Notes: a model not told the origin generated them from the sequence alone. 64,000 nucleotides of DNA from Acidimicrobiales bacterium (GCA_030743005.1 JASLTG010000013.1:762-64761), one strand, 5' to 3'; positions 11,972 to 63,368 are shown, numbered from the stretch's first letter. Translations and numbers: made by a program.

Positions 11972-11974
11972 TGG

Positions 11975-31463: not shown

Positions 31464-31559
31464 GAAAAAGAAGATTCCGTCTGTAAATCCGCCCAACGGA
31501 ATTTGTTTTCTACTACGTTGCCGGTCGTGGCCCGTGCCCCCGGTTCCGGTAGTCGTCAA

Positions 31560-32663: not shown

Positions 32664-32676
32664 GGGGGAGTTTCGT

Positions 32677-43420: not shown

Positions 43421-43482
43421 AGTCTGTTTTTACCGCCGGACCATCCGCGCTCAGCTAGCAACGATCGGTACCCTCGATCATC

Positions 43483-44676
43483 ATGGTTCAGCACGCCGAA
43501 GGGGCGTTCGAAATTGATCCAGAAGCGGTCGTGAATGCTGAATTTGCTCACGTGTTCCGCGGGTACTCGATCGACGAAGTTCGATCGTTCCTAGAAGACG
43601 TAGGTCGTGAACTGCACCGTTTGAAAAACGAACTCGCAGCAGCGCGTTCAGTGCAGCAAGTTGTGGCTGCCACAGCAGAAACACCACTTGGTCTGAGTGA
43701 TGAAACGCAAAATCGTTCGACAACCTCCGTTGGTCCTGGAACGGTCATTGACCTGCAATCTCACCGACTTACTCTCGAACGCGACGACAATTTCAGTGAC
43801 CTAGATTCCGAAATTTCTGATGCCCGACTGACCGAAGCCCAAGAGAGATCGGAAGAAGATTCAGAACAACGGCAAGTGGTTCCGTTCCCTAGCGCGGCTC
43901 CACCTCAACGGCGGGCAGTAATTGATGAGCTTTTCGCACGGCTGGGAGAACCACAGCTCGACGACGTTGAATGGGCTAAGGAAGTTCTCATTCGTACTGG
44001 AGAGATCCCGGCCATCCCAGAATCCCCATACGCTTCGATTCACGGAGAGGCAGAAACAATCAGCGACCACCATGACCGTTTGCGAAGCACGGTCGCGGAG
44101 CTCTCTCGCGCCTCGGTAGGACAACTCAAGAGAAACATCGCCACACGACTCGAGAGCCTTCTACCGGAACTAAAACACCTTTCGTCAAACAAGTTTGAAA
44201 TGTCGCAATTAGTGCCGAAGGCAATGGATGACGAGTTCATCGAAGGCTTAACGCCGTTCGTGGCTGCCGCAGCAAAATTTGGGGCAGGGGGAACAAAAGT
44301 CAACGTTGATGGCATACCGAACAAAGTCGCAAGAATCACAGGAGATTGGCTACGCGACCGCCTCCAAGCGCACCTAGATGATGATGTCGCTATCGAAGTC
44401 CGACTTCGAGCTGTCTACCGGGAATGGAAAAAATCTGCGGTAGACCTGATCGCCACAGACGCAATAGCCGAAGCGTTTGCCCTGGGCCTCTACGCCACGA
44501 TCCCATCGGACCAACAAATCAAGTGGGAAACTCCATCAGATGGGTGCTGCAGCACCACCTGCCATGACAACGCATCAGCCTTAACACGCAGAAAAGGTGA
44601 AGAATTTCCCTCAGGTCACCTGCTTCCCCCAATTGGTCCAGGATGTCGCAGTCTGGTCGTGCCCACAGGCCAGTAG
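43483..44676 (+). CDS. DivIVA-domain protein with a Cys-containing C-terminal module
   Basis: FAHVFRGYSIDEVRSFLEDVGRELHRLKNEL is a DivIVA N-terminal motif. The C-terminus is W..CCSTTCHDN...FPSGHLLPPIGPGCRSLVVP. Confidence 0.65.
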   Translation: MVQHAEGAFEIDPEAVVNAEFAHVFRGYSIDEVRSFLEDVGRELHRLKNELAAARSVQQVVAATAETPLGLSDETQNRSTTSVGPGTVIDLQSHRLTLERDDNFSDLDSEISDARLTEAQERSEEDSEQRQVVPFPSAAPPQRRAVIDELFARLGEPQLDDVEWAKEVLIRTGEIPAIPESPYASIHGEAETISDHHDRLRSTVAELSRASVGQLKRNIATRLESLLPELKHLSSNKFEMSQLVPKAMDDEFIEGLTPFVAAAAKFGAGGTKVNVDGIPNKVARITGDWLRDRLQAHLDDDVAIEVRLRAVYREWKKSAVDLIATDAIAEAFALGLYATIPSDQQIKWETPSDGCCSTTCHDNASALTRRKGEEFPSGHLLPPIGPGCRSLVVPTGQ

Positions 44677-44688
44677 CATTCCAGGTAT

Positions 44689-47640
44689 ATGCGACCACCT
44701 GAGCAAATGAAGTCACGTCGGCGGCGAACCAATCGGCTACGGGTACTGCTCGGTATCGGTGGGTTAGCCATCTTTTTGTTCTTTACGTCGATCCGAGGCC
44801 TCGCTGGGTTCTGGACTGACTATCTCTGGTTCGACAGTCTCTCACTGTCGTCGGTGTGGACATCTGTGCTTTGGGCCAAGATCGGCCTCGGTTTGTTATT
44901 CACCGCAGTATTTTTCGTGTCTCTGTGGGTGAATCTGTTTATCGCTGATCGTTTCGCCCCGAAGGTTCGGCCACCAGGACCAGAAGATGAACTTTCGCGA
45001 AGGTGGCAACAATTCACCTCCTCTCGAACAGTTCTCATCAGAAGCATTGTTTCGCTTTTGTTTGCGCTTTTAGTTGGAGCTGGAGTCTCTTCGCAATGGC
45101 AAAGCTGGCTGTTCTTCACCAACCGAGTTGATTTCGGGATCGTTGACCAGCAGTTCGGTATCGATGTCGGTTTTTATGTCTTCCAGCTTCCATTTCTGAC
45201 ATTCATCGTTAGTTGGGCTTTTGCCGCGATACTGGTCATCTTTGTCGTCACAACCATCCAGCATTACCTCAACGGCGGTATACGCCTCCAAGGGCAAGCC
45301 GGATCCCGAGTTGCTCCACAAGTTAAGGCCCACTTGTCGCTTCTTCTGGGCTTGTTGGCATTGGTAAAAGGCGTCGGTTATTACCTCGATAGATACGAAC
45401 TGACATTGTCCGAACGTGGGTTTGTCACTGGGGCCACCTACACCGACGTCAAAGCACAATTGCCAGCGTTACAGCTCCTCATGATCGTCAGTGTGTTCTG
45501 CTTTGGCTTGCTGATCTTCAATATATGGCGGCGAGGATTTACATATCCGATCATTGCAGTTGGGCTGTGGGCATTGGTTGCCAGCTTGGCTGGAACGATT
45601 TACCCAGCTTTGGTCCAACGCTTTCAAGTAGAGCCGTCGGAGTCGACCAAAGAAGCGCCGTACATCGAACGCAACATCGAGATGACGCGAGTCGCCATGG
45701 GCCTCGACCAGGTAATGCCCCGCGACTTCGATTACGAACCCACTCTCACAGCAACCGAAATCGAAGAAAATCTTGCGACGGTTCGCAACGTACGGCTCTT
45801 AGACCCAGCCGTCATGCGCGATACGTTCCAACAGACTCAAGGCATAAAAAGTTTCTATGACTTTCGCGACATTGATGTCGATCGATATGAAATTGATGGA
45901 CGGACCACTCAAGTTGTACTTGCCGCTAGAGAACTAAAACAAACCGACCTTCCAAATAGCTCGTGGGAGTCCCAACATATTGCGTTCACCCACGGATATG
46001 GGATTGCTGCCGCGCCCGCCAACGCCATTGACGCCAATGGCCGTCCGGACTACGCCCTAGCCGACATACCCGTAACAGCAGGTCCGGGGGCTGAGTCTTT
46101 GGATATAGATATGCCAGGTCTGTACATAGGTGAAGGTTTGAAGGGCTACGCGATTGTTGGCGCAGCACGAGACGAAGTTGACTTCCAAGATAATGATGAT
46201 CAGACCGAAGTGACCCGCTACGACGGAGCTGACGGAGTGGCTATCAGTTCGCTCCCGAGAAAACTTGCGTTTGCTTTGCGTTTCGCAGAACCGAACCTTG
46301 TCGTTTCTGGCGAACTCGGTTCAGACAGCCGCATTTTGTACAAGCGCGATGTAGTCGATCGAGCAAAAACTCTTGCACCGTTCCTGAAATTTGACCGGGA
46401 CCCGTATCCAGCGGTTATCGACGGCAAAGTGATGTGGATCCTCGACGCATATACCTCTACAGATATGTTCCCCTACGCGCAACGAGTGAATCCGCGTGCG
46501 GTCAGATCAGGCGACCTTCGTACAGAAGCAAATTATGTGCGGAACTCGATCAAAGTCGTTGTCGATGCTTACGACGGAACTCCCACCTTTTACATAGTTG
46601 ATGACGAAGACCCCATAGCGAAGTCCTACCGTAAACAGTTCCCTGATTTGTTCAGTGAGACTGGACCTCCAGCAGAAGTCGCAGAGCACTTCCGCTACCC
46701 CGAAGATCTGTTCCGAATGCAAACAGACATGTGGGGTCGATATCGCATCACCGAAGCGTCGGAGTTCTATGACGCAGCAGGAGCTTGGAGCGTTGCCCAA
46801 GACCCAGGAAATTCGATCGGTCAGACAGCAGTCGAATCAGTCATTGATGCTTCAGGCAACATCATTAGTAGTTCTGAGGTACGTATTGCGCCCCAGTATC
46901 TATTGATGCGCCTGCCGGGAGATGACGATGAATCATTCGTCATTTTCAGACCGTTCGTCCCGTTCTCCGATGATGATTCACGTAAGAACCTTGAAGGTTT
47001 CATGGTCGTTCACAACGACCCTGAACGATACGGCCAAATTGAAGTTTATGAGATTCGCGCTTCCACTCCAGTTGATGGGCCAGCTCTGTTCAACTCCAAT
47101 ATTCAGACCGAAGAGGAAATCTCTGAACGAGTGACACTCCTGAATCAGAATGGGTCAACTGTTGTGCCGGGAAATCTGCTGCTCATTCCGGTCGAGAACT
47201 CGTTGCTGTACGTTCGTCCGCTCTACATAGAAGCCACTGGAACGACAGCAGTTCCCGAACTGCAGTTGGTCATCGTTGGTGTTGGCCCAGAAGTCGTAAT
47301 CGCCGACAGCTTTGAAGCAGCGTTAGCCCGCGCAATTCCGGGACTCAATATCGATTTACAATCTGACACTGTCGCACCAGACCTCGATGTCGCTGAACCC
47401 GACGACGACGACGAGCTTTCCCAGTCGCCTGAACCCGAAGAAGATGAAGAATCTGGTGATCTGTCCGTTGAAGAGTTATTGGCTCTATCTCGGGAAGCAT
47501 TCGACCGCGCTAATGCAGCGTTGCGAACAGGTGACCTAGCTGGGTATCAACGGTGGGTTGAAACAGCCGCTGGCTATATATCGAAGGCCCAAAAGATGCT
47601 TAGTCAGTCTCCTGTTCGAGACGACGCTGACGCTGCCTAA
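44689..47640 (+). CDS. UPF0182-family large polytopic membrane protein
   Basis: 983 aa with about 7 N-terminal TM helices, a large extracytoplasmic domain and an acidic C-terminal tail. Size and context match the Rv3193c-type family. Confidence 0.8.
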   Translation: MRPPEQMKSRRRRTNRLRVLLGIGGLAIFLFFTSIRGLAGFWTDYLWFDSLSLSSVWTSVLWAKIGLGLLFTAVFFVSLWVNLFIADRFAPKVRPPGPEDELSRRWQQFTSSRTVLIRSIVSLLFALLVGAGVSSQWQSWLFFTNRVDFGIVDQQFGIDVGFYVFQLPFLTFIVSWAFAAILVIFVVTTIQHYLNGGIRLQGQAGSRVAPQVKAHLSLLLGLLALVKGVGYYLDRYELTLSERGFVTGATYTDVKAQLPALQLLMIVSVFCFGLLIFNIWRRGFTYPIIAVGLWALVASLAGTIYPALVQRFQVEPSESTKEAPYIERNIEMTRVAMGLDQVMPRDFDYEPTLTATEIEENLATVRNVRLLDPAVMRDTFQQTQGIKSFYDFRDIDVDRYEIDGRTTQVVLAARELKQTDLPNSSWESQHIAFTHGYGIAAAPANAIDANGRPDYALADIPVTAGPGAESLDIDMPGLYIGEGLKGYAIVGAARDEVDFQDNDDQTEVTRYDGADGVAISSLPRKLAFALRFAEPNLVVSGELGSDSRILYKRDVVDRAKTLAPFLKFDRDPYPAVIDGKVMWILDAYTSTDMFPYAQRVNPRAVRSGDLRTEANYVRNSIKVVVDAYDGTPTFYIVDDEDPIAKSYRKQFPDLFSETGPPAEVAEHFRYPEDLFRMQTDMWGRYRITEASEFYDAAGAWSVAQDPGNSIGQTAVESVIDASGNIISSSEVRIAPQYLLMRLPGDDDESFVIFRPFVPFSDDDSRKNLEGFMVVHNDPERYGQIEVYEIRASTPVDGPALFNSNIQTEEEISERVTLLNQNGSTVVPGNLLLIPVENSLLYVRPLYIEATGTTAVPELQLVIVGVGPEVVIADSFEAALARAIPGLNIDLQSDTVAPDLDVAEPDDDDELSQSPEPEEDEESGDLSVEELLALSREAFDRANAALRTGDLAGYQRWVETAAGYISKAQKMLSQSPVRDDADAA

Positions 47641-47644
47641 CACT

Positions 47645-48394
47645 GTGCCGGGCACAATCCCTACTGCTACAGGTCATGTAACGGCACCAGGACGAGTCTT
47701 GGTTGTCGTCGCTCATCCCGACGACGTTGATTTTGGCACCGCTGGCACTATGGCAGCGTTAGTTAGCGCCGGCTCCCAAGTCTCTTACTGTCTGGTAACT
47801 AGTGGCGACGCGGGTGATGACGATCTAACACGAGATACCGCAGATCTCGCAGCTCTGCGACAGGAAGAACAAACAGCTGCCGCGTTAGCGGTGGGAGTGG
47901 AAGATTTACATTGGCTGGATTACCCCGATGGTCGAGTCGAAAACAGCCTCGAGCTTCGGCGTGATATCTCGCGGGTTATCCGGATAGTTCGACCTGATGT
48001 TGTTGTGACGCAGCCAACAACCGCTAATTGGGACCGAATTTACGGGTCTCACCCGGATCATTTAGCAACGGCTTGGGCGACGATGGCCGCTGTCTACCCT
48101 GACGCTCGGAACCCGCGATCGCACCCCGAACTATTAGCCGAAGGTTATGAACCGCACACCGTGACCGAAGTTTGGATGATGTGGATGGCTGCTCCTGAAG
48201 GAACGATGATGCACGTAGATATCACCGCCACCTTCGAAGAGAAAGTTAAGGCCCTGCATTGCCATTCAAGTCAAACCGATCGCATTGAAGGCTTGGATGA
48301 GTTGCTGCGAGAGTGGGCCTCAGGTGTCGCATCAACAGCGAACATGGAACCGGGCCGCCTTGCGGAAGGCTTTCGAGTTATCAACACCGAGTAA
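47645..48394 (+). CDS. PIG-L/LmbE-family N-acetylglucosaminyl deacetylase
   Basis: VVVAHPDDVDFGTAG and SHPDH motifs. The GTG at 47645 avoids the 83-nt overlap with UPF0182 implied by the track start. Confidence 0.8.
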   Translation: MPGTIPTATGHVTAPGRVLVVVAHPDDVDFGTAGTMAALVSAGSQVSYCLVTSGDAGDDDLTRDTADLAALRQEEQTAAALAVGVEDLHWLDYPDGRVENSLELRRDISRVIRIVRPDVVVTQPTTANWDRIYGSHPDHLATAWATMAAVYPDARNPRSHPELLAEGYEPHTVTEVWMMWMAAPEGTMMHVDITATFEEKVKALHCHSSQTDRIEGLDELLREWASGVASTANMEPGRLAEGFRVINTE

Positions 48395-48421
48395 AGTGAC
48401 GAAATTGGTGAAGTAGGGGCT

Positions 48422-49717
48422 ATGAGCGAAAGACAGCTAATTGACTCGCCGCGCGGTTGGCTCACCGTCATCGCCACCTTTTTCTCTTCCGCGGTGGCGC
48501 TGGGCGCGGTGTACAGCTTCGGTGCGTTCTTCGAATCGATGGCTGACGATTTCGGAACAGGGAAAGGCTCCACTGCCATCATCTTTGGGCTAACGACCTT
48601 CTCGTTTTTCTGGTTGAGTTTGATTACAAGCCGGCTTTCAGACCGGTATGGGCCGCGGCCCGTGCTCGCGGCGGGAGCGGTTGCGTTGTTCGTCGGACTT
48701 TGGGCCACTAGTTATGTCAATTCGATTGGGGCGGGCTACATAACCTTCGGAGTTGGGGCCGGGATTGCTGCGGCCTGTGCTTATATTCCGATGGTCGGCC
48801 ATGTCGGCGGCTGGTTCGAAAAGTCACGCGCCACCGCAGTCGGCATTTCAGTCGCTGGTATTGGTGTCGGCACGCTGGTCATGAACCCATTAGCAGCCAG
48901 ACTCATTGACTTGTACGGGTGGAGAAGCACCTACCGAATATTCGGAGTCGTAGGGTCACTGGTCCTGTTAGTCGGCACTTTGATGATGGCCCGAGCCCCT
49001 GGAGAAGCTGGCGCAGCTCCGTCAAGGATTCGAGAAGCATTTTTCTCTCCGACGTTTCGGAAGCTCTGGTTAGCTGCTCTCTGTTATGCCACTGCCCTGT
49101 TTATTCCCTTCGTTTTTGTGGTTCCCTATGCCAAAGAGCGAGGAATTTCTGCTGTCGCCGCAGCCACCCTGGTCGGGTTACTTGGCGGATCTAGTGTCTT
49201 GTCTCGGATTGGTTTCAGTTGGCTCACTAACCAGTTCGGTATTTTCCGTATCTTTCGATTTGGTTTTGCGCTGTGCCCAATAGCTTTCGGCACCTGGTTG
49301 TTCGCCGGGTCATCTTTTACTGCTCTCGTAATTTTTATGCTCATTATGGGTATTGGATACGGTTCGTTTGTGGCGGTTAGTCCGCTGGTACTTGCCGACT
49401 TATTTGGGGTAGTGGGTCTCGGCTCGCTGATGGGGCTTTTGTACACAGCGTGTGGTTTAGGTGCGTTGCTTGGCCCTCCAATGGCAGGTCGAATGATTGA
49501 TGTCTCTGGCGGCTACACCATGCCGCTGTTGGTTGGCTTGGGACTTGGCCTCATTGCGTTTTTGTCGCTGACATTGTTTTCAACCACGCCATCAGGAAAC
49601 ATTGCTGTCGCCGGTGCAGGTTCACCTGAAGTTCCGACAGTTGAGAGTGGTGTCGCAACGGTGATGGGTGCTTTCGATGAAACCTTGCTAGAGCTTGAAG
49701 ATTGGCTCGACCCTTGA
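48422..49717 (+). CDS. MFS transporter (oxalate/formate-antiporter-like)
   Basis: 12 TM helices and an SRLSDRYGPRP motif-A-like loop. Confidence 0.8.
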   Translation: MSERQLIDSPRGWLTVIATFFSSAVALGAVYSFGAFFESMADDFGTGKGSTAIIFGLTTFSFFWLSLITSRLSDRYGPRPVLAAGAVALFVGLWATSYVNSIGAGYITFGVGAGIAAACAYIPMVGHVGGWFEKSRATAVGISVAGIGVGTLVMNPLAARLIDLYGWRSTYRIFGVVGSLVLLVGTLMMARAPGEAGAAPSRIREAFFSPTFRKLWLAALCYATALFIPFVFVVPYAKERGISAVAAATLVGLLGGSSVLSRIGFSWLTNQFGIFRIFRFGFALCPIAFGTWLFAGSSFTALVIFMLIMGIGYGSFVAVSPLVLADLFGVVGLGSLMGLLYTACGLGALLGPPMAGRMIDVSGGYTMPLLVGLGLGLIAFLSLTLFSTTPSGNIAVAGAGSPEVPTVESGVATVMGAFDETLLELEDWLDP

Positions 49718-49859
49718 GCCATTTAGCGCTGTCATTTGCTCGGCTCTATTGCTCCTGCAAATAGCGAATCCGACATATCAGTTTGATCCCCCGCATCAAT
49801 TAATTATTGATGTACACCTACAAATATGAGAAGTCGGCGAGAAGAAGCCAATAGCTGAC

Positions 49860-51014
49860 ATGGCTATTGCATCAATTACCCACGACACAGGTATTGCATC
49901 AATTACCCACGACACAGGTATTGCATCAATTACTCACGACACAGAATGGCTTCAAGTCACATTTTCTTCCGGAGAGACCAGCAAGTTCTATGTCCAATGG
50001 TTAAGGGACAACATCCCTTCTGGGCGTCATCAAGATCGAGGCCAACGAACCTTTGACATAAACTCACTTCCCCAACACTCACTGAGTGAAGTTACTCACA
50101 CCGGCGATCAAGTCGCTGTCACCTTTGATCTTGACCAGTGCACCCATGTGTTCACTGCAAGTTGGCTTCACTCTCATAGAAACCCGATCACTCTTCGAAC
50201 CAATCCAACCCCAGTTCTTTGGAATGCCGAGGGACAAAACGAACTTTCCTTTGCTGACTATTCGACTCTGAAAAGTTCAAGAAAATCTTTACACTCCTGG
50301 CTTCGCCATATAAGAGATTACGGATATGGGCTACTAGAAAATGTTCCAACTGAACCAGAGACAGTTCTTGAAGTCGTTGAGATGTTTGGTTATGTACGAG
50401 ACACGAATTACGGAAAACTTTTTGAAGTCCGGGCGGAACCAAACCCCTCAAACCTTGCATTCACGAAACTTGGAATCGGGATGCATACCGATAACCCTTA
50501 TCGAGACCCGGTACCAGGATTGCAACTACTGCACTGTCTGGTCAACGAATCAGATGGAGGGGAGACCCAGCTTGTTGATGGCTTCGCAGTAGCAGAAAAG
50601 ATCCGCCAAAAATATCCTGAAGCGTTTTGGTTGCTCTCTACCCTGCCAGTGCGATTTCGATATTTAGACGAAGGATCAGCAGACCTTGAAGCAACGAGCT
50701 CGCTTATTGAAACTAACTCTCACGGAGAAGTAATTGCTTTGCGCTATAACAGTCGCTCGGCACAAGCTTTCACTTTCCCTAGCGAAGTAATGGCAGATTA
50801 TTATGCTGCTTACCGGTTACTTGGGGAACTTTTACACGAACCAGAAGCACGTATCGAATTTCGGTTAACCCCTGGACAGTTAATGATTTTTGATAATCAA
50901 CGTGTGCTTCACGGCCGTTCTTCCTATGAGGAAGGGTCTCGTCATCTTCAAGGCTGTTATGCAGACAAAGATTCTTTGCGATCGTTCATTCGCGTACTTG
51001 AGGAAAAGAAATGA
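49860..51014 (+). CDS. gamma-butyrobetaine-hydroxylase/TmpA/PhnY*-like Fe(II)/2-oxoglutarate dioxygenase
   Basis: N-terminal DUF971-like region (FYVQWLRDN) lacking the BBOX zinc cysteines. The TauD-fold core has GMHTDNPY (HxD) and QRVLHGRS (distal His + Arg). Confidence 0.75.
   Translation: MAIASITHDTGIASITHDTGIASITHDTEWLQVTFSSGETSKFYVQWLRDNIPSGRHQDRGQRTFDINSLPQHSLSEVTHTGDQVAVTFDLDQCTHVFTASWLHSHRNPITLRTNPTPVLWNAEGQNELSFADYSTLKSSRKSLHSWLRHIRDYGYGLLENVPTEPETVLEVVEMFGYVRDTNYGKLFEVRAEPNPSNLAFTKLGIGMHTDNPYRDPVPGLQLLHCLVNESDGGETQLVDGFAVAEKIRQKYPEAFWLLSTLPVRFRYLDEGSADLEATSSLIETNSHGEVIALRYNSRSAQAFTFPSEVMADYYAAYRLLGELLHEPEARIEFRLTPGQLMIFDNQRVLHGRSSYEEGSRHLQGCYADKDSLRSFIRVLEEKK
49866..49943 (+). repeat. 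27-bp direct tandem repeat, 2 full copies plus a 24-nt third copy with one C>T change
   Basis: ATTGCATCAATTACCCACGACACAGGT occurs at 49866 and 49893, and ATTGCATCAATTACTCACGACACA at 49920. The repeat encodes (IASITHDTG)n at the N-terminus of the dioxygenase. Confidence 0.95.
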
Positions 51015-51550
51015 CAGTCATTGAAGAACTGACAGCACTTATGGAAGGGCGAGGGAAACGAAGCTACGGAGAGAACGTGACTATTGCTGAACACGTGTTG
51101 TTGACTGCATCGGTAGCTGAAGAGACTAAAGCTTCAGAGTCTCTGATTGCCGCCTGTCTTTTACATGACGTGGGTCATTGGTTAGATGAACCAGATGACG
51201 ACTTTGGCATACATAGTCATGCTGATACCGGGGGAGTTTGGGTTGCTGAACGGTTTGGGTCAGATGTTTCCGAACCCGTACGCCTTCACGTAGACGCAAA
51301 ACGTTACTTATGCGCGGTTGATCCGGGATATCACAGCTGCTTGTCGTATGCGTCTCAATACACATTGACACAACAGAACGGTCCAATGACGCAAGACGAA
51401 ATCGTTATCTTCCTCTCTAACCCTCATCATGAAGATGCTCTGGCTTTACGTAAGTTTGAAGACATGCATGGGAAAAGAACCAGTGTTCCTATCCCTGAGT
51501 TTGAATATTTCCATCCGCTCTTAGAGAAACTAATTAAGCCATTCAAATAG
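51011..51550 (+). CDS. HD-domain protein of the PhnZ/TmpB type (candidate mixed-valent diiron oxygenase)
   Basis: H28, H52-D53, H68/H70, H93 and D151 form an H..HD..H..H..D pattern. LHVDAKRYL is a motif I associate with phosphonate-operon HD proteins. The ATGA overlap with the dioxygenase stop implies coupling. Confidence 0.72.
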   Translation: MTVIEELTALMEGRGKRSYGENVTIAEHVLLTASVAEETKASESLIAACLLHDVGHWLDEPDDDFGIHSHADTGGVWVAERFGSDVSEPVRLHVDAKRYLCAVDPGYHSCLSYASQYTLTQQNGPMTQDEIVIFLSNPHHEDALALRKFEDMHGKRTSVPIPEFEYFHPLLEKLIKPFK

Positions 51551-51594
51551 CAAACTAATGAGGGTGTTGCTGCTCCTGCCGTTATCCTCTGGGT

Positions 51595-51671
51595 CGCGGG
51601 GTGGAGCAGTTTGGTAGCTCGTCGGGCTCATAACCCGAAGGCCGTTGGTTCAAATCCAACCCCCGCCACCA
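51595..51671 (+). tRNA. metZ: initiator tRNA-Met (anticodon CAU)
   Basis: CGCGGGGTGGAGCAG start, an unpaired 1:72 position (C/C), three G-C pairs closing the anticodon stem (GGG/CCC), loop CTCATAA and an encoded CCA. Confidence 0.9.
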
Positions 51672-51675
51672 AGTA

Positions 51676-51705
51676 AAAGGTCCGGTCTTTATGGCCGGGC
51701 CTTTT
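51676..51705. terminator. bidirectional hairpin terminator between the tRNA-Met and the convergent DUF2182 gene
   Basis: 12-bp stem AAAGGTCCGGTC / GGCCGGGCCTTT (two G-U pairs), flanked by A-run and T-run so that either strand reads stem + U-tract. Confidence 0.6.
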
Positions 51706-51719
51706 GCTGTTCTCAGTAG

Positions 51720-52559
51720 TTAGCCCCCGTCGCCGTTCATGTCCATGTCGTCGTTCATGTCCATGTCGCCGTTCACATCCATATTCATGACGGCATCAGG
51801 ATCGAGACCGGGGGCGACACTCGGGTCGATAACGATTGCGACTGCCCACACCACAGCGACTATGCCGACCAGTCGAGCGAACTTTTCGCCGTGCCGCCAG
51901 TGCTTTTCAACTGCTATTACCAGTGCCAGACCAACCATTGCGGCCATGTTCATCACGCCAAAAGCGACCATCACCAGCATTAAAGCCCAGCAACAACCCA
52001 GACAAAAGAGGCCGTGATGGATACCGGCACGAATATCGCGTAACGACCCACGAAAGCCGATGAATTGCATTAGGTGACCGAGCGGACTGCGGCAATGGTC
52101 GAGGCAGCGCACCTTCAATGGTGTCAGTTGGTACAGACCGGCGGCGGCGAAACAGACCACAGCGACCCATTGAGCGAGAGTTGCTCGCTCGGCGGCTATG
52201 TCGCCAAATACGTCGGCTATCGCGAACGCCACAACCCCTGTTGCTCCCCACGCCAGCAGGTACCCGCTCGCAAGAGCGGTGAGTCGCGGCCCTCTATGGG
52301 TAGTGACTGTTCGCTCGTAAAGAGTCGCTAGCGGTGCTATCGATGACAACATCATCGCGGCCATCATGAGTGTCCACATGATGAGGAACGACACGAACGA
52401 CATGCCCATGGTGCCTGGCATACCCCACAATCCCATGTCCATGCGGACAGCCCACACGATGGTTACAACCCAGCAACCAGCGCTGATGGCGTGAATAACT
52501 GTCGTGGATAGTCTTGAATTGTGTGCCGGCTGAGCCGGTGGTTGGGTTAGGCCGCCCAA
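51720..52559 (-). CDS. DUF2182-like predicted metal-binding integral membrane protein
   Basis: IMWTLMMAAMM helix, CLDHCRSP and HGLFCLGCCW Cys/His clusters, and a C-terminal NMDVNGDMDMNDDMDMNGDGG tail. Confidence 0.65.
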   Translation of the reverse strand: MGGLTQPPAQPAHNSRLSTTVIHAISAGCWVVTIVWAVRMDMGLWGMPGTMGMSFVSFLIMWTLMMAAMMLSSIAPLATLYERTVTTHRGPRLTALASGYLLAWGATGVVAFAIADVFGDIAAERATLAQWVAVVCFAAAGLYQLTPLKVRCLDHCRSPLGHLMQFIGFRGSLRDIRAGIHHGLFCLGCCWALMLVMVAFGVMNMAAMVGLALVIAVEKHWRHGEKFARLVGIVAVVWAVAIVIDPSVAPGLDPDAVMNMDVNGDMDMNDDMDMNGDGG

Positions 52560-53306: not shown

Positions 53307-54590
53307 ATGGTTCGGTTAAGTGATCTTCACCCCGTTGAGGCGGAGCACCTTGCAGCGCGAGCGCTAGCCATGCCGGCTATAGGTCCGGGTGAATGGGTCA
53401 CTCCGCTGCCACTTGATCAAGCAACGGTCGCGATTGTCTCTACCGCAGGTCTTCACCGGCGCATAGACCCCCCATTCACTGTCGGGTCGCTGGATTATCG
53501 GATCATTCCCGGAGATACCCAATTCGACGACCTCGTGCTCTCCCATATCAGCGCCAATTTTGATCGCAGCGCATTCGGCCAAGACCCCAACATTGTTTTC
53601 CCAATCGACCGCCTCCGCGAATTTGCTTCCTCTGGAGAAATCGGGGGAGTAGCACGTTGGCATTACTCCTTCATGGGAGCGATGCCCGACCCGTCCCAGT
53701 TCGAGAAAGCAGGAGAAGAGATCGGTCGATTGATGGCTCAAGATGGCGTCGATATTGCTTTTTTGGTTCCCATATGACCCGTCTGCACGGGCGCGGTCGG
53801 TGCCTTAGCCAATTACATAGAGCGCGCCGGAGTAGCTACTACTTCCATAAGCCTGATCCGAGAAATGTCCGAAGCAGTTATACCTCCACGAGCGCTATGG
53901 GTGCCCTTTCCTCTCGGCCGACCGCTCGGTGCTGTCGATGATTCAGAATTCCAAAAGAACGTGATGAGAACAGCATTCCGACTTTTGGACACTGCGGTCG
54001 AACCAACCATTGAGGACTATGAACTACAAGCGCCAGGTGAAGGCTCCAACGAAAATTGGTCCTGTCCACTGAATCTAACGCCTGAATCGTCAGGCTCCTT
54101 AACCGAACGATTGTTGGCAGAAGTTGCCCTACTTCGCCCGTGGGCTATCGAAACTCGACGTCAGCGAGGACGAACTCTATTCGGCGCAAGCGGAGCTCGA
54201 GAAGATCAAGTTGACGAGCTGGCTCGAGCCTTCGCCTCGGTGGCCGAAACGGGCGACGTTACCTCTGAACTTGTTGTTGACGACGTTGCTTGGGCGTTTG
54301 AAACGCCGTTGCTTCTGCGTCACATAGCCGATGACCTTCGCACCTTCTATCACGAAGCAATAGCAGCACAACCCGGCGACACTGTGCCTGACCACGACGC
54401 GCTGAACCAATGGATATTTGGTGAAACAGTCCTTGGGGAAGCGCTCTTATCGGTAGCCGATGGATTAACGAAGGCTTCCGATTCGCCCATGGCTCAACTA
54501 GTCAGAGGACTCTTAATTCCCGAAGGTCACTACAGAGGCGGAAGCGCTTTCCCCCAACAGACCAATTTCCCGATAAACCAGGAAACCTAG
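53307..54590 (+). CDS. GrdB/PrdB-family (glycine/sarcosine/betaine/D-proline reductase B-like) selenoprotein, Sec encoded by TGA 53775..53777 (codon 157)
   Basis: Track ORFs 53307..53777 and 53865..54590 share a frame and are separated only by one TGA. The 29 codons in between are open. The U-P-V-C motif is followed by GVATTSISLIRE...PPRALWVPFPLGRPLG. selA, selB and tRNA-Sec are in the same window. Confidence 0.75.
53778..53828 (+). promoter_or_regulatory. candidate bacterial SECIS element
   Basis: Hairpin options lie directly 3' of the UGA. One is CCCGU-CUGC-ACGGG (53778..53791). Another is GGGCGC-GGUC-G(G)UGCCU (53789..53805), whose apical GGUC sits about 20 nt after the UGA. An outer GGCGCG/CGCGCC pairing (53790..53795 with 53823..53828) is also possible. 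Confidence 0.45.
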
Positions 54591-55226: not shown

Positions 55227-56702
55227 TTACCTGTAAATCAAAGCGTCGTCGTCTAGATCAACTACAGGGAGTTCGTCTTTGTCTCTCCAATAATCTTGGG
55301 TGTGGCGCCACGGATCTACGGTGCCTTGTTTGGGCATCAAATGTATTGAGCGCATCAAATACCCGGGGTTAAAGTTTTCTGGATCAACCCAAGGAAGCAA
55401 TTCCATGTCTTCGTCCTCGGGTCGCAAAGCAGGAACAACGGTTTTTGCGTCCACATTGTCCATATGGTGCAGTAGTCGACACACATACTCAGCTATGAGA
55501 TCAGCGCGCAACGTCCAACTTGCTCTGAAGTAACCGAACACCCAAATCATGTTCGGTAAGCCAGTAAACATCATGCCCCGATACCCAACAGTGTTGGAGA
55601 AATCGAGGGGTTCTTCGTCAATGGTGAACGAAATATCGCCGAGAATGCTGAGGTCGAAACCGGTAGCTGTGACAATGATGTCTGCTTCGAGTACCTGACC
55701 GCTGGCTGTTTCGATGCCTGTTTCGGTGAAAGTTGCGATCTCATCGGTAACAACCGAGGCATCGCCTGCGGCTATGGAGTGGAAAAGATCACCGTCTGGA
55801 ATGAGCGCAATCCGTTGTTGCCAAGGCCGGTACGCGGGTTCAAAGTGTTCGGAGACGTCGTAGTCATCGCCCAAGATGTCTCTTACCCCGTTGTATAGCT
55901 CGTCTCGAACTAGGTCGGGATATTTGAACGACATCTCCACGATTTGTTCTTGATCAAAAAGGATTTTCTTTCGAACAATTTCGTGAGTCCACTCGTCTGG
56001 GATGTCTAGTTGCCGAAGAGTGTCCGCGAGTTCGTTGCTATTAGGTCGAGCTACGAAAAAGGTTGGTGACCTTTGTAACATCGTCACGTGCTCGGTTTTG
56101 TCCGCCATCGCAGGGATGAGAGTTGCTGCTGTGGCACCTGAGCCGATTACGACAACTTTTTTGTTGGTGTAGTCAAGGTCGTCGGGCCATGTTTGAGGGT
56201 GTACGACGGGTCCTTGAAAGCGGTCCATTCCTGGCCATTCAGGGGTGTAGGGGTCTGTATGTCTGTAATAGCCCTGACACATCCATAGGAATCCGCACGT
56301 GAAAGTAACTTGCTCCTTAGCGCCTTGTCGCTGGACTTTCAAAGTCCAATATTTGTCGTCGCTGGACCATTCAGCGGTTTCGATGGTGTGTTCGTACCTG
56401 ATGTGGGATGAGATGTCGTTTTCTTCGATGACCTCCCCCATGTAGTCCAAAATTTCTTCAGCGGTGGCGATTGGTGGGCCCGTCCAAGGTTTGAAGCCGT
56501 ATCCGAATGTGTACAGGTCGCTATCTGATCGAATTCCTGGATAGGTATGGGTCTTCCAAGTGCCACCGAAGCCGTCCATGGTCTCTAGAATCACGAAGCT
56601 TTTGTCTGGGCATTCTTTTTGTAGGTGGTAGGCGCCACCTATTCCAGAAATGCCTGCACCGACGATAAGGACGTCGAAGTGCTCGGTGGTTGTTTGATTC
56701 AT
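55227..56702 (-). CDS. type I Baeyer-Villiger / flavin-containing monooxygenase
   Basis: VLIVGAGISGIG (FAD), BVMO fingerprint FQGPVVHPQTWP, and VIGSGATA (NADPH). The ATG at 56702 is preferred over 56738. Confidence 0.85.
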   Translation of the reverse strand: MNQTTTEHFDVLIVGAGISGIGGAYHLQKECPDKSFVILETMDGFGGTWKTHTYPGIRSDSDLYTFGYGFKPWTGPPIATAEEILDYMGEVIEENDISSHIRYEHTIETAEWSSDDKYWTLKVQRQGAKEQVTFTCGFLWMCQGYYRHTDPYTPEWPGMDRFQGPVVHPQTWPDDLDYTNKKVVVIGSGATAATLIPAMADKTEHVTMLQRSPTFFVARPNSNELADTLRQLDIPDEWTHEIVRKKILFDQEQIVEMSFKYPDLVRDELYNGVRDILGDDYDVSEHFEPAYRPWQQRIALIPDGDLFHSIAAGDASVVTDEIATFTETGIETASGQVLEADIIVTATGFDLSILGDISFTIDEEPLDFSNTVGYRGMMFTGLPNMIWVFGYFRASWTLRADLIAEYVCRLLHHMDNVDAKTVVPALRPEDEDMELLPWVDPENFNPGYLMRSIHLMPKQGTVDPWRHTQDYWRDKDELPVVDLDDDALIYR

Positions 56703-56826
56703 ATCTCTAGGGTCGCCGATAGCGGGTGGTGGGAACAAATCGAATCTGGTATTGGTTTGAATTCAATGTGCATTAATTCCTAATAGCCACGACTCAGAAT
56801 AGATGAGTCCAGCGACTTTCAACGAG

Positions 56827-58203
56827 TCAGTCTTGCACGACGTGCTGAGCGAATTCGCTTAGTGAATCTTGCCACGCTTTCTGATTTATAAGCCCTGATG
56901 CATCGAGAGCCGCTGCCCCACGAGATCCCATGGCCAAGACGTGATGAAGATTGTCCGGCACTCCCAGGCCTTGACGACCAAGACTGACAACTCGTCCGGG
57001 CTCATGCAGCCAATTATCGATTACCTCCCGGGCGTCGACCGTGGAGTGTTCGTACACGGGATATACCGAAGGAAGTCGCCGGACCTCGACGTGGACATGG
57101 CCGGTCGACGGTAAACCTGCTCGCTGTAAATCCTCTTCGACTAATTGGCCGATGTCTTCTGAAGGCAGGTTCCAGATTTCATCATCGACCCAACAGGCCA
57201 ACTCAGCACACAGGACTGTTAAATCGTCGGGATCATCTCCGTCTCTGTAGTTCTTAGCTTCGGAAAGTCGCGCAGTTGTGATGTCCAATCCTGGGAAATA
57301 ATGGGCATCAAATGGTGTGTACTGACTCCGAGGAACCACTAAATGGGCGATGAGCATTCCACGTGTTCTTTGGCGGTCAATCGCCGTAACTAGTTCGGCA
57401 GGTGGGGGAGGGTCGAGTGTTTGGATAAGAGCATTAAGGGGAATAGATGAGAACACTGTGTTGACATCAATAGATGTGTTACCGCATGTGACTTCGACTC
57501 TGTCTTGTTTGGTTGTGACTTGTCGTGCTGGTGATCTCAATTCGAGTTTGACGCCTCGATCTATTGCTGTTTCTGCGAGCGATTCAGCTATCTGTCCGTA
57601 GCCCCGACGTGGATAATAAAAGATGCGGCCTTCTGGGCGTGATGCCCGGACAGCGTTCTTGATGATGTGCAGAGGCCCAGCTGCAGAAACGCGACGGTTG
57701 GATAGTTCCGTCGTGAGATGGCTTGGGTCTACCCCGTAAAGCTTCGTTGTGTAGGGACCATAAAATTCTCGGGCCACAGTTGGGCCCAGTCGCCGTTGGA
57801 TTTCAGATTCGAAATCAGATGTCCTGCTTGATCTAAGAGGCTTGGTTATCGTGTCGAATGCGACAGCACCGCTGAAACGAATTGGTAAATGTTTGATCAT
57901 GTCTAAGGTGCGAAGAGGAAACCCGATCCATTGGTTCTTAAGGCGAATCCGTCCGTGACGTTCGCGAGTTTGCAAATCATCCCCCAAGAGGGACTTGATG
58001 AGAGACATGATTTCGGGGTCGGTAGCGGGATGGAGTCGATGACTTCCGAAGTCGACTCGTTGCCCGGCGACCTCGAAACTCGCGGCCATACCGCCTACAC
58101 GGTCGGAAGCCTCAAAAATTGTGACTTCGTGGCCTTGTTCGCGGGCCTTCAACGCGGTCATGAGTCCGGCGGGTCCGGCTCCTAGTACTGCTATGTCACT
58201 CAT
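56827..58203 (-). CDS. FAD-dependent oxidoreductase (amine-oxidase / phytoene-desaturase-like fold)
   Basis: IAVLGAGPAGLMTA..VTIFEASDRVGGMA dinucleotide-binding motif. Confidence 0.75.
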   Translation of the reverse strand: MSDIAVLGAGPAGLMTALKAREQGHEVTIFEASDRVGGMAASFEVAGQRVDFGSHRLHPATDPEIMSLIKSLLGDDLQTRERHGRIRLKNQWIGFPLRTLDMIKHLPIRFSGAVAFDTITKPLRSSRTSDFESEIQRRLGPTVAREFYGPYTTKLYGVDPSHLTTELSNRRVSAAGPLHIIKNAVRASRPEGRIFYYPRRGYGQIAESLAETAIDRGVKLELRSPARQVTTKQDRVEVTCGNTSIDVNTVFSSIPLNALIQTLDPPPPAELVTAIDRQRTRGMLIAHLVVPRSQYTPFDAHYFPGLDITTARLSEAKNYRDGDDPDDLTVLCAELACWVDDEIWNLPSEDIGQLVEEDLQRAGLPSTGHVHVEVRRLPSVYPVYEHSTVDAREVIDNWLHEPGRVVSLGRQGLGVPDNLHHVLAMGSRGAAALDASGLINQKAWQDSLSEFAQHVVQD

Positions 58204-62304: not shown

Positions 62305-63368
62305 TGATTCTGTATACCGCTCGCTTCGATGATTTTGGCGGTTTCTTCAAAGCCGCCACCCAAAGCATCGAAATCGACCGAACCGATTTCCAACGCTGAG
62401 AGTTTCGGCAGCGCCGCGTTGGGTTGGACGCCCGCTGCGAGTGGATATTCGAAGGTTCTGTTAGTGAAGTAGCTCTGCACTGGTCCTGTCAGGAGGTATG
62501 CAAGTAGTTCGTTTGCCGCCTCGGAATTCTCCGCCGAATCCAAGACAGTGGCAGCAGTAATGATGAGGAGAGAACCAATGTCGTTGTCATCAAGGTCGTG
62601 GTTTCGCGCCCGGTGCTCATCTCCAGCGGCTGCCACTTCTTGATAGTTGTAGTAGTGGTTCACAAGGCCCATCTCTATTTCGCCACGACCCGCTGCTTCG
62701 ACAATTGAGCGGTTGTTTGGGTAGTAACGGGCGTCGTTGTCCACCATATCGTTCAACCACTGAGCGGCTACGTCAGTTCCATATTGGTCACGAAAGACAG
62801 TGAACCAATCAACGAAAGAACCGTTGGTCCCTGGGATTGCTACTTTGCCTCGCCACTTCTCTTCGGTCAGGTCAAACACAGAAGATGGGAGTTCTGCATC
62901 TGGTACAAGATCAATGTTGTGGACAAGAACTCGCTTTCGGCCAGAGAATCCGATCCAGGAACCTTCGGCCGACCTGTTTTCTTCACCAACGAGGTTGAGG
63001 ACTGAGTCGTCAATGGTGCCAAGAAGACCCTTTGATTCAAGAAAACCGACTGGCCCCGGTGAACGACTTAGAAAAACGTCAGCGGGACTGCGTTTCCCTT
63101 CTTCGTCAATCAGAAGAGCGAGCTGTGTCGAACTGCCCCAGCGGACCTGAACGCTGATGCCCGTCGCGCATGCGAAAGCCTCGAGGACAGGCTCGATGAG
63201 GTTTTCAGTACGACCTGAGTAAATAGTGACCTCTTTACCCGAACCGTCTACACATTCTTCGGGGTTAATTTCTGCGGCTAACCCGTCGATTTGTAGTTGG
63301 TCGGAGCCGCCGCACGCGGCGGCGACCAAGGTGAATGTTATGAGGAGGGGGAGTAAGCGGTTCAGCAT
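62301..63368 (-). CDS. ABC transporter substrate-binding lipoprotein (FbpA/iron(III)-like, SBP family 1)
   Basis: Lipobox LVAAACGG, TIYSGRTENLIEPVLEAF, and HYYNY. It overlaps the permease start by 4 nt. Confidence 0.8.
   Translation of the reverse strand: MLNRLLPLLITFTLVAAACGGSDQLQIDGLAAEINPEECVDGSGKEVTIYSGRTENLIEPVLEAFACATGISVQVRWGSSTQLALLIDEEGKRSPADVFLSRSPGPVGFLESKGLLGTIDDSVLNLVGEENRSAEGSWIGFSGRKRVLVHNIDLVPDAELPSSVFDLTEEKWRGKVAIPGTNGSFVDWFTVFRDQYGTDVAAQWLNDMVDNDARYYPNNRSIVEAAGRGEIEMGLVNHYYNYQEVAAAGDEHRARNHDLDDNDIGSLLIITAATVLDSAENSEAANELLAYLLTGPVQSYFTNRTFEYPLAAGVQPNAALPKLSALEIGSVDFDALGGGFEETAKIIEASGIQNQ

What the first reader, a model, noticed from the sequence alone, without database searches (positions are those of the whole stretch)
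48422..51550. MFS + BBOX/TmpA/PhnY*-like dioxygenase + PhnZ/TmpB-like HD protein: candidate oxidative C-P bond cleavage cassette
The 384-aa protein has the Fe(II)/2OG triad (HTD ... H, then R in HGRS) and a DUF971-type N-domain. The WLRDN motif is kept, but the three zinc cysteines of true gamma-butyrobetaine hydroxylase are replaced (WLRDNIPSGRH). The gene overlaps (ATGA) a 179-aa HD-domain protein with an H..HD..H..H..D ligand pattern and the LHVDAKRYL motif. The only well-characterised pairing of exactly these two families is the two-step oxidative phosphonate pathway. There a 2OG dioxygenase hydroxylates C1 (PhnY* on 2-aminoethylphosphonate, TmpA on trimethyl-AEP), and an HD mixed-valent diiron oxygenase (PhnZ/TmpB) then cleaves the C-P bond to release phosphate. 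The substrate here is undetermined and could be AEP, TMAEP or another aminophosphonate. No phosphonate ABC transporter (phnCDE) is present. An MFS transporter lies 143 bp upstream and may substitute for it.
Basis: partly seen in the sequence, partly recalled or inferred. Interest (0 to 1): 0.7.

Follow-up and report, generated by a model that had tools for sequence, protein, structure and literature searches.

The report
TmpA/TmpB-like phosphonate-cleaving gene pair
A marine Acidimicrobiales genome carries a two-gene insert, most like the known TmpA/TmpB enzymes, that probably releases phosphate from trimethyl-aminoethylphosphonate; the neighbouring transporter gene does not belong to it.

Summary
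The three ORFs exist as described. The 384-aa protein is a GBBH-like_N + TauD Fe/2OG dioxygenase. Its best match is Leisingera TmpA (297 bits, against 156 for human BBOX), and it just clears NCBIfam's TmpA equivalog cut-off (405 vs 400). It keeps the iron ligands, the aromatic-cage positions and the Arg found in all 46 HD-paired homologues but replaced by Ala in BBOX.

The 179-aa HD protein keeps the diiron ligand pattern. Its only significant structural matches are TmpB and PhnZ (TM 0.84-0.90). It scores far below the TmpB equivalog cut-off (143 vs 300).

On neighbour-joining trees both proteins fall in a clade sister to the characterised TmpA/TmpB clade. The oxidative C-P cleavage reading is therefore well supported. 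Trimethyl-AEP is the likeliest substrate, but this is unproven.

The MFS link is not supported. MFS homologues keep the order PIG-L, MFS, tRNA-Met in relatives that lack the enzymes. In the window the pair is a low-GC 1,865-bp insertion (49722-51586) between the MFS gene and tRNA-Met. Another lineage shares only the block from the upstream region to the tRNA.

Verdict: a new, divergent member of a known pathway. Interest is modest.

The parts
49722..51586 (.). Inserted block of 1,865 bp holding the upstream region, the dioxygenase gene and the HD gene. It is absent from the otherwise syntenic relative L085, which has 67 bp here.
   Evidence: blastn: window-L085 homology runs 43467-49721 and resumes at 51587. 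GC is 0.444-0.459 inside the block, against 0.542-0.574 in the flanking genes.
49782..49859 (+). Conserved 78-bp upstream region that travels with the gene pair; a presumed promoter and ribosome-binding region. It holds the palindrome CATCAAT-N5-ATTGATG at 49793-49811.
   Evidence: About 80% nucleotide identity to L005/L006 starts exactly at 49782, although the upstream genes differ. No Rfam family matched, and the only sigma-70-like match is on the opposite strand, no more than expected by chance.
49860..51014 (+). TmpA-like Fe(II)/2-oxoglutarate dioxygenase (384 aa). Predicted to hydroxylate C1 of a 2-(trimethylammonio)ethylphosphonate-type substrate.
   Evidence: NF049936 TmpA 405.2 bits (cut-off 400), BBOX model 334.5 (cut-off 414.75). 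PDB: TmpA 6npb 297 bits vs BBOX 156. Residues Y184, F188, F201, Y367, N198, S298, R299, H209, D211, H351, R361.
49865..49944 (+). 27-bp in-frame tandem repeat, three copies, coding IASITHDTG at the N-terminus of the dioxygenase. Copy number varies between genomes.
   Evidence: TRF: period 27, 3.0 copies, 98% matches. Two copies in L002/L004, one in L005/L006. Cluster members are 375, 384, 387 and 393 aa.
51011..51550 (+). TmpB/PhnZ-family HD-domain diiron oxygenase (179 aa). Predicted to cleave the C-P bond of the 1-hydroxylated intermediate and release phosphate. Its start overlaps the dioxygenase stop (ATGA).
   Evidence: PDB: TmpB 6npa 110 bits, PhnZ 70 bits. AF2 model pLDDT 96.5; Foldseek finds only TmpB and PhnZ significant, TM 0.84-0.90. 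Invariant columns H28, H52, D53, H70, H93, K97, R98, S112, S115, Q122, R147. Below all equivalog cut-offs.
51595..51671 (+). tRNA-Met (CAT). It is the right-hand anchor of the insertion and follows the pair in both genomic contexts where the pair is found.
   Evidence: ARAGORN and Rfam tRNA at 64.9 bits. The same tRNA follows the pair in L005/L006, and follows the MFS gene directly in L085, L087, L089 and L090.
48422..49717 (+). MFS transporter (431 aa). This is a flanking core gene and not part of the cassette.
   Evidence: The order DivIVA-UPF0182-PIG-L-MFS-tRNA-Met is conserved without the enzymes at 86, 80, 69 and 65% MFS identity. Best NCBIfam hits are lactate, monocarboxylate and oxalate/formate transporters, all far below cut-off.

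Best explanation
The feature is a two-gene catabolic insert, not three genes. It encodes a TmpA-like Fe(II)/2-oxoglutarate dioxygenase and a translationally coupled TmpB-like HD-domain diiron oxygenase.

Proposed steps:
1. The dioxygenase binds an aminoethylphosphonate bearing a methylated, most likely quaternary, ammonium group. Y184/F188/F201/Y367 would form an aromatic cage for the ammonium, and N198/S298/R299 would hold the phosphonate. It hydroxylates C1.
2. The HD enzyme binds the 1-hydroxyphosphonate on a diiron centre (H28, H52, D53, H70, H93, E150/D151). It cleaves the C-P bond oxidatively, giving inorganic phosphate plus glycine betaine if the substrate is trimethyl-AEP.

Shown here: family placement, conservation of the active-site columns, fold, gene pairing, and the insertion structure.

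Inferred: the chemistry, the roles assigned to individual residues, the substrate, the product, and phosphorus scavenging as the physiological purpose.

The pair sits as a 1.87-kb low-GC block between a core MFS gene and tRNA-Met in a marine Acidimicrobiales genome. It was probably gained laterally from a lower-GC relative. How the substrate enters the cell is unknown.
For: - Dioxygenase: TmpA equivalog 405.2 bits vs cut-off 400, while the BBOX model fails. PDB TmpA 297 bits vs BBOX 156. 44.7% identity to TmpA vs 28.9% to human BBOX.
- All 46 HD-paired dioxygenases carry Arg at TmpA position 288 and Phe at 177, where human BBOX has Ala and Trp. N187, N287 and R288 are the published phosphonate binders of TmpA (PMC9296572).
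- HD protein: best PDB hit TmpB at E 7e-31. Ligand and other active-site columns are invariant. The model has pLDDT 96.5, with TmpB and PhnZ the only significant structural matches.
- 49 of 80 related loci have the same dioxygenase directly upstream of the HD gene, and 15 of them are fused into one ORF.
- The HD and dioxygenase NJ trees agree and place the window clade as sister to the clade holding characterised TmpA/TmpB; PhnZ was set as the outgroup of the HD tree.
- Insertion structure.
- TmpAB is the only described trimethyl-AEP degradation route (PMC10590968).
Against: - The HD protein fails every curated cut-off: TmpB 143 vs 300, Phn-HD 169 vs 214.6. Its whole clade does the same, while the canonical clade passes.
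- It has Y-G-E instead of the YxxE substrate loop, a 13-residue rather than 17-residue loop after the HD motif, and E-D instead of D-E at the last ligand position.
- The dioxygenase has Ser at TmpA N287, and its clade straddles the TmpA cut-off (399-418 bits).
- No dedicated transporter, regulator or glycine betaine catabolic gene is linked to the pair.
- The trees are neighbour-joining without bootstrap support.
- There is no biochemical or expression data.
Confidence: 0.75

Rival explanations
1. Same two-step oxidative chemistry, but the sister clade has a different preferred substrate from trimethyl-AEP. Candidates are mono- or dimethyl-AEP, AEP itself, or another cationic phosphonate.
For: The HD clade scores far below the TmpB equivalog, and the dioxygenase clade sits on the TmpA threshold. 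The substrate loop is one residue shorter (YGE), the loop after the HD motif is 4 residues shorter, and there is an E-D swap. The dioxygenase carries N287S. The HD model superposes slightly better on substrate-bound PhnZ (rmsd 1.4-1.6 A) than on TmpB (3.4-3.7 A).
Against: All aromatic-cage positions inferred for a quaternary ammonium are kept, along with R299. YGE and YxGE are both common across the family, and Ser at position 287 recurs in 12 of 46 paired dioxygenases, so these are ordinary family variation. Sequence identity is higher to TmpB (35%) than to PhnZ (30%).
Confidence: 0.2
2. One reading: a three-gene cassette in which the upstream MFS protein imports the phosphonate in place of PhnCDE.
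For: Same strand, with only 142 nt between the genes. An MFS phosphonate permease, AepP, exists (PMC8316502). Unrelated MFS genes sit directly upstream of HD genes in L025, L041 and L054.
Against: The MFS-tRNA-Met adjacency is conserved in four relatives that lack the enzymes. The pair is an insertion between the two. No window-type MFS lies next to the pair in any of the 80 loci; the only weak homologue, in L065 (26% identity), lies about 5.6 kb downstream of the pair. The MFS GC is 0.542 against 0.456 for the enzymes. The block shared with L005/L006 starts downstream of the MFS gene. The MFS resembles oxalate/formate and monocarboxylate carriers, not the GlpT family of AepP.
Confidence: 0.08
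3. A carnitine-pathway gamma-butyrobetaine hydroxylase next to an unrelated HD phosphohydrolase, as JGI's automatic names suggest.
For: JGI labels both proteins 'gamma-butyrobetaine dioxygenase'. The BBOX model scores 334.5 bits.
Against: The BBOX score is below its cut-off of 414.75 and below the TmpA score. The zinc cysteines are absent, and Arg299 replaces the Ala of BBOX. The HD protein matches only C-P-cleaving oxygenases in the PDB. The two genes co-occur, overlap and are even fused across phyla.
Confidence: 0.02

Closest known systems
TmpA/TmpB of Leisingera caerulea (2-trimethylaminoethylphosphonate dioxygenase and (R)-1-hydroxy-2-trimethylaminoethylphosphonate oxygenase; PDB 6NPB-6NPD, 6NPA)
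   Same: Same domain architectures and the same adjacent gene order; the ATGA start/stop overlap seen in the window recurs in many related loci. Best sequence and structure matches for both proteins. Iron ligands, aromatic-cage positions, N187 and R288 equivalents are kept. The window clade is sister to this clade in both trees.
   Different: Only 44.7% (TmpA) and about 35% (TmpB) identity. The HD protein is far below the TmpB equivalog cut-off. It has YGE instead of YLGE, a 13-residue rather than 17-residue loop after HDxGH, and E-D instead of D-E at the last ligand. The dioxygenase has Ser at N287. The host is a marine actinobacterium and the pair is an insertion next to tRNA-Met.
PhnY*/PhnZ (2-AEP oxidative pathway, uncultured marine bacterium HF130_AEPn_1; PDB 4MLM, 4MLN, 4N6W, 4N71)
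   Same: Same two-step logic. The HD fold is nearly superposable (TM 0.84-0.90). The same ligand and active-site columns are conserved.
   Different: The HD protein is only 29-31% identical to PhnZ. The partner dioxygenase here is of the BBOX/TmpA type (GBBH-like_N + TauD) with aromatic-cage positions kept. I had no PhnY* sequence, so no direct comparison was made.
Gamma-butyrobetaine hydroxylase (BBOX; PDB 3MS5, 3O2G)
   Same: Same two-domain architecture, HxD...H triad, WLRDN motif and aromatic positions.
   Different: 28.9% identity. No zinc cysteines. Arg instead of Ala after the NN motif, and Phe instead of Trp in the cage. Below the BBOX equivalog cut-off. Always paired with an HD oxygenase in this clade.
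AepP, the MFS 2-AEP permease of Pseudomonas putida BIRD-1
   Same: Shows that an MFS protein can import an aminophosphonate (PMC8316502).
   Different: AepP is a GlpT-type organophosphate:phosphate antiporter relative that is co-localised with catabolic genes. The window MFS is closest to oxalate/formate and monocarboxylate carriers and is conserved independently of the enzymes.

Membership tests
TmpA (NCBIfam NF049936, 2-trimethylaminoethylphosphonate dioxygenase) | Whole-protein score at or above the curated equivalog cut-off (400 bits) | tested here: met
   405.2 bits. This is marginal: the 82%-identical L006 protein scores 399.3, clade members score 414-418, and the canonical clade scores 566-586.
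TmpA (NCBIfam NF049936, 2-trimethylaminoethylphosphonate dioxygenase) | GBBH-like_N + TauD architecture with the HxD...H iron triad | tested here: met
   PF06155 and PF02668; H209, D211, H351.
TmpA (NCBIfam NF049936, 2-trimethylaminoethylphosphonate dioxygenase) | Phosphonate-binding residues N187, N287, R288 (PMC9296572) | tested here: inconclusive
   N198 and R299 are kept; position 287 is Ser298. Ser occurs in 12 of 46 HD-paired homologues, and Arg is present in all 46.
TmpA (NCBIfam NF049936, 2-trimethylaminoethylphosphonate dioxygenase) | Aromatic cage for the trimethylammonium group | tested here: met
   Y184, F188, F201 and Y367 align with TmpA Y173, F177, Y190 and Y358. The assignment of cage positions rests on my recollection of the human BBOX cage, plus PMC9296572's statement that the proteins share aromatic residues.
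TmpA (NCBIfam NF049936, 2-trimethylaminoethylphosphonate dioxygenase) | Specific hydroxylation of trimethyl-AEP, with no activity on gamma-butyrobetaine | not testable with these tools
   Needs enzyme assays.
TmpB (NCBIfam NF049941, (R)-1-hydroxy-2-trimethylaminoethylphosphonate oxygenase) | Whole-protein score at or above the curated equivalog cut-off (300 bits) | tested here: not met
   143.4 bits. Clade members score 143-174, and the canonical clade scores 332.
TmpB (NCBIfam NF049941, (R)-1-hydroxy-2-trimethylaminoethylphosphonate oxygenase) | H...HD...H...H...D diiron ligand set | tested here: met
   H28, H52, D53, H70 and H93 are invariant. The last position reads E150-D151 where TmpB and PhnZ read D-E, so a carboxylate is kept, but which residue binds iron is unresolved.
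TmpB (NCBIfam NF049941, (R)-1-hydroxy-2-trimethylaminoethylphosphonate oxygenase) | YxxE substrate-gating loop (Y30/E33 in TmpB, Y24/E27 in PhnZ; PMC8177086) | tested here: not met
   The window has Y19-G20-E21, one residue shorter. All 120 nearest homologues share this, and it occurs in 43 of about 97 scorable family representatives.
TmpB (NCBIfam NF049941, (R)-1-hydroxy-2-trimethylaminoethylphosphonate oxygenase) | PhnZ/TmpB fold | tested here: met
   AF2 pLDDT 96.5. Foldseek: TmpB E 2e-12 (TM 0.86-0.87) and PhnZ TM 0.84-0.90. No other chain has E below 0.1.
Phn-HD (TIGR03276, phosphonate degradation HD-domain oxygenase) | Score at or above the curated cut-off (214.6 bits) | tested here: not met
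   169.0 bits. It is the best-scoring model but is below cut-off.
Gamma-butyrobetaine dioxygenase (TIGR02409) | Score at or above the cut-off (414.75 bits) and the Cys3 zinc site in the N-domain | tested here: not met
   334.5 bits. The window has WLRDNIPSGRH with no cysteines.
Known phosphonate importers (PhnCDE; AepP of the GlpT family) | A PhnD-type binding protein, or a GlpT-type MFS, linked to the catabolic genes | tested here: not met
   The MFS's 15 listed NCBIfam hits are led by lactate, monocarboxylate and oxalate/formate carriers, include no GlpT-type model, and are all far below cut-off. No phnCDE was found among the scanned ORFs. The MFS is conserved without the enzymes.

The most novel reading that the evidence does not exclude
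The Acidimicrobiales clade (YGE loop, short loop after the HD motif, E-D at the last ligand position, Ser at TmpA-287) could be a functionally distinct third or fourth branch of the oxidative C-P pathway. Its substrate might differ from trimethyl-AEP. It might spread among marine Acidimicrobiales as a small unit made of a promoter region, two genes and tRNA-Met, recombining at the tRNA gene.
Probability: 0.15. Interest if true: 0.45.

Novelty: new member of a known kind. Interest (0 to 1): 0.27.

Why it matters
Phosphonates are a sizeable phosphorus pool in the ocean. Published estimates of how many marine bacteria carry phnZ-type genes differ by orders of magnitude, partly because subtypes with different substrates are lumped together (PMC10574752; PMC8316502).

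This locus shows that a divergent TmpAB-like pair occurs in pelagic Acidimicrobiales as a strain-variable insert. Public databases label it only 'TauD/TfdA family', 'HD domain-containing' or, wrongly, 'gamma-butyrobetaine dioxygenase'.

The finding is useful for annotation and for surveys of marine phosphonate use. It does not change what is known about the chemistry.

Tried and rejected
- The primary TmpAB paper (PMC6503667) and both PhnZ structure papers (PMC3986159, PMC3839769) are not held. The residues of TmpB that contact the trimethylammonium group could therefore not be checked, and I relied on secondary papers.
- MFS as part of the cassette: rejected on comparative grounds.
- MFS genes next to HD genes in other lineages (L025, L041, L054) are unrelated to the window MFS (E above 1e-4).
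- Loop length (YGE vs YxGE) as a specificity marker: rejected, because both forms are common across the family.
- N287S as a marker of a new function: rejected as a sole argument, because it recurs in several clades.
- RNA element in the conserved upstream region: no Rfam hit.
- Promoter and terminator scans: the numbers found are at or below chance.
- The palindrome at 49793-49811 is degenerate in L005/L006, so no operator is claimed.
- The ABC importer at 60.7-63.4 kb as the missing transporter: the similarity to 2-AEP transporter subunits is far below cut-off and the genes are 9 kb away on the other strand, so this is left as a lead only.
- The Foldseek result could not separate TmpB-type from PhnZ-type.
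Full report
**1. The observation**

The HD start overlaps the dioxygenase stop as ATGA.

Pfam assigns MFS_1; TauD plus GBBH-like_N (the former DUF971); and HD.

- H209-T-D211 and H351 in the dioxygenase.
- WLRDN followed by IPSGRH, where human BBOX has CPCSDCY.
- H28, H52-D53, H70, H93 and LHVDAKRYL in the HD protein.

There are small corrections. The gap is 142 nt. The likelier 2OG-anchoring Arg is R361 rather than the Arg of HGRS (this rests on my recollection of BBOX and TauD spacing). The last ligand position reads E150-D151 where TmpB and PhnZ read D-E.

**2. What the two enzymes are**

*Dioxygenase.*
- It scores 405.2 bits on NCBIfam's TmpA equivalog (cut-off 400) and 334.5 on the BBOX equivalog (cut-off 414.75).
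- Against solved structures, its best hit is Leisingera TmpA (297 bits), ahead of human BBOX (156 bits).
- Identity is 44.7% to TmpA and 28.9% to BBOX.

*HD protein.*
- It hits TmpB (6NPA, E 7e-31), then PhnZ (E 1e-18), and nothing else.
- An AlphaFold2 model built on 42 homologues has mean pLDDT 96.5.
- In a Foldseek search of the PDB, only TmpB and PhnZ chains are significant (TM 0.84-0.90). The next hit has E above 0.1.

*Active-site residues.*
- Published TmpA phosphonate binders are N187, N287 and R288 (PMC9296572).
- I aligned 46 dioxygenases that sit directly upstream of an HD gene. The Arg is present in all 46 where BBOX has Ala. Phe replaces the BBOX Trp at cage position 177 in all 46. 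N187 is kept in 45.
- Position 287 is Asn in 33 and Ser in 12, including the window.
- Some paired members keep the CxCxxC zinc motif, so its loss does not define the family.

**3. A sister clade, not the canonical one**

The HD protein is below every curated cut-off: Phn-HD 169 vs 214.6, TmpB 143 vs 300, PhnZ1 123 vs 300.

I scored relatives with the same models.

| Clade | TmpA model (cut-off 400) | TmpB model (cut-off 300) |
|---|---|---|
| Canonical (Labrys L084, Paraburkholderia L074) | 566-586 bits | 332 bits |
| Window's clade (diox L006, L007, L056, L008; HD L006, L007) | 399-418 bits | 143-174 bits |

Neighbour-joining trees of the HD proteins and of the dioxygenases agree with each other. 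Both place the window with L005, L006 and L007, in a clade sister to the one holding TmpA/TmpB. In the HD tree PhnZ was set as the outgroup and joins on a long branch. These trees carry no bootstrap support.

The window's HD clade differs from TmpB and PhnZ in three ways:
- It has Y-G-E where they have the YxxE gating loop (PMC8177086).
- It has a 13-residue rather than 17-residue loop after HDxGH.
- It has E-D instead of D-E at the last ligand position.

Among 150 representatives of the whole family, both loop lengths are common (43 vs 54). The family has 1,471 clusters at 50% identity with E of 1e-10 or better. The E-D swap is rare, at one representative.

The loop length is therefore ordinary family variation, and the swap is a clade trait of unknown consequence.

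**4. The pair is a unit; the MFS is not part of it**

In a sample of 80 loci from named genomes, 49 have the TmpA-type dioxygenase directly upstream of the HD gene. Fifteen of these, in Kitasatospora and Streptomyces, are single fused ORFs. None has a window-type MFS next to the pair; the only weak homologue, in L065 (26% identity), lies about 5.6 kb downstream.

The nearest named relatives are a marine Acidimicrobiales MAG and the single-cell genome AG-439-B19, at about 80% identity. Upstream of the pair they have two short-chain dehydrogenases and a luciferase-like monooxygenase instead.

Approaching from the other side, MFS homologues at 86, 80, 69 and 65% identity all lie in the order DivIVA, UPF0182, PIG-L, MFS, tRNA-Met. 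None of them has the enzymes.
- In L085 the MFS stop and the tRNA are 67 bp apart.
- In L087 a sulfatase-family gene follows the tRNA.

blastn shows that window-L085 homology ends at 49721 and resumes at 51587. Window-L005/L006 homology covers only 49782-51678: 78 bp of upstream region, both genes and the tRNA-Met.

The pair has GC 0.456-0.459, against 0.542-0.574 for its neighbours and 0.528 for the window. The L005/L006 loci are about 0.45 overall.

The simplest reading is a 1.87-kb insert next to tRNA-Met, gained from a lower-GC relative. Deletion in the relatives cannot be formally excluded. No integrase or repeat boundary was seen.

**5. Mechanism**

By homology with TmpA/TmpB, the dioxygenase hydroxylates C1 of the phosphonate. 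The HD diiron oxygenase then cleaves the C-P bond of the 1-hydroxy intermediate to give phosphate. If the substrate is trimethyl-AEP, the other product is glycine betaine (PMC8177086, PMC10574752).

The retained aromatic positions and the Arg argue for a cationic, methylated aminoethylphosphonate. Substrate identity, product and regulation are inferred, not shown.

I put 0.75 on oxidative C-P cleavage of an AEP-type phosphonate, and roughly 0.55 on trimethyl-AEP specifically.

The uptake route is unknown. The known MFS phosphonate permease AepP is a GlpT relative (PMC8316502), unlike this MFS. An ABC importer weakly resembling PhnS/PhnU lies at 60712-63368, but it is far below cut-off.

**6. 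Novelty**

TmpAB was described in 2019 (PMC8177086 reference list). From my memory of that paper's abstract, the gene pair was reported in more than 350 bacterial species. A tmpB-type phnZ clade has been counted in TARA Oceans data (PMC8316502).

The exact proteins are in public MAGs under generic or wrong names.

This is a new, divergent member of a known pathway, in a lineage and genomic setting not previously described as far as the searched literature shows.

**7. Side observations**

- The PrdB-like ORF at 53307-54590 has an in-frame TGA followed by PVC. It is a member of the known marine UxxC PrdB selenoprotein family (PMC2398784).
- SelA, SelB and tRNA-SeC are in the same window.
- Other items are listed separately under noticed in passing.

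Noticed in passing
window 53307-54590 (+): A PrdB/GrdB-like gene (PF07355) has an in-frame TGA at 53775-53777 followed by P-V-C, giving a UxxC motif, and then 270 more open codons. Gene callers split it into a 156-aa and a 241-aa gene. All 120 nearest homologues in the protein database are C-terminal fragments only. L087 keeps the TGA and a downstream hairpin with one compensatory C:G to A:T change. It matches the known abundant marine PrdB selenoprotein family (PMC2398784)..
   Followed up: yes
window 10253-13216 (-) and 29082-29177 (-): The selenocysteine machinery is in the same window: SelB (572 aa), SelA (413 aa) and tRNA-SeC (anticodon TCA)..
   Followed up: partly
window 49865-49944 (+): A 27-bp in-frame tandem repeat at the very start of the dioxygenase gene varies between genomes: 3 copies here, 2 in L002/L004, 1 in L005/L006, and cluster members of 393 aa suggest 4. 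The 10-mer GCATCAATTA in each unit also forms the left half of the palindrome at 49793-49811..
   Followed up: partly
window 60712-63368 (-): ABC importer with a fused double permease (530 aa) and an SBP_bac_6 binding protein (355 aa). The best NCBIfam hits are 2-AEP transporter subunits (PhnU2 at 122 bits, PhnS-type at 50 bits), but all are far below cut-off. It is a possible, unproven uptake route for phosphonates..
   Followed up: partly
L085 6297-6500; L087 6297-8140: The slot around tRNA-Met after the MFS gene varies between related genomes. It is empty in L085, holds a sulfatase-family gene (PF00884, 532 aa) after the tRNA in L087, and holds the dioxygenase-HD pair before the tRNA in the window..
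   Followed up: partly
L013 6885-8531, L021, L029, L032, L039, L040 and 9 more loci: In Kitasatospora and Streptomyces the TmpA-type dioxygenase and the HD oxygenase are fused into a single ORF of about 550 aa. Representatives of 536-598 aa with a C-terminal HD domain also appear in the exhaustive search. This is a bacterial parallel to the fused fungal PhoF mentioned in PMC10574752..
   Followed up: partly
L025 6687-7991, L041 6658-7974, L054 6654-7970: HD oxygenase genes without a TmpA-type partner are directly preceded by an MFS gene. These MFS proteins are 51-56% identical to one another and unrelated to the window MFS. This recurrent MFS plus PhnZ-like pair has an unknown substrate..
   Followed up: partly
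window 51595-51671 (+): The tRNA-Met next to the insert has a C1-C72 mismatch and three G-C pairs in the anticodon stem, read directly from the sequence. From general knowledge these are hallmarks of an initiator tRNA..
   Followed up: no
window 51729-51775 (-, inside the PpoB2 gene 51720-52559): An 18-bp tandem repeat (2.6 copies) codes a D/N-M-D-M-N-G-D run at the C-terminus of the PpoB2-family protein, which is paired with a DUF1326 gene..
   Followed up: no
window 31503-33321 (+): A Na+/Pi cotransporter gene is followed by a PhoU-domain gene, with a SurE gene upstream and a second MFS gene downstream. These phosphate-related genes lie about 17 kb from the cassette, and no link was shown..
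   Followed up: no
window 55227-58203 (-): An FMO-like, Baeyer-Villiger-type monooxygenase (503 aa; weak 48-bit hit to trimethylamine monooxygenase) sits next to a flavin amine oxidase (458 aa). No link to the cassette was shown..
   Followed up: no
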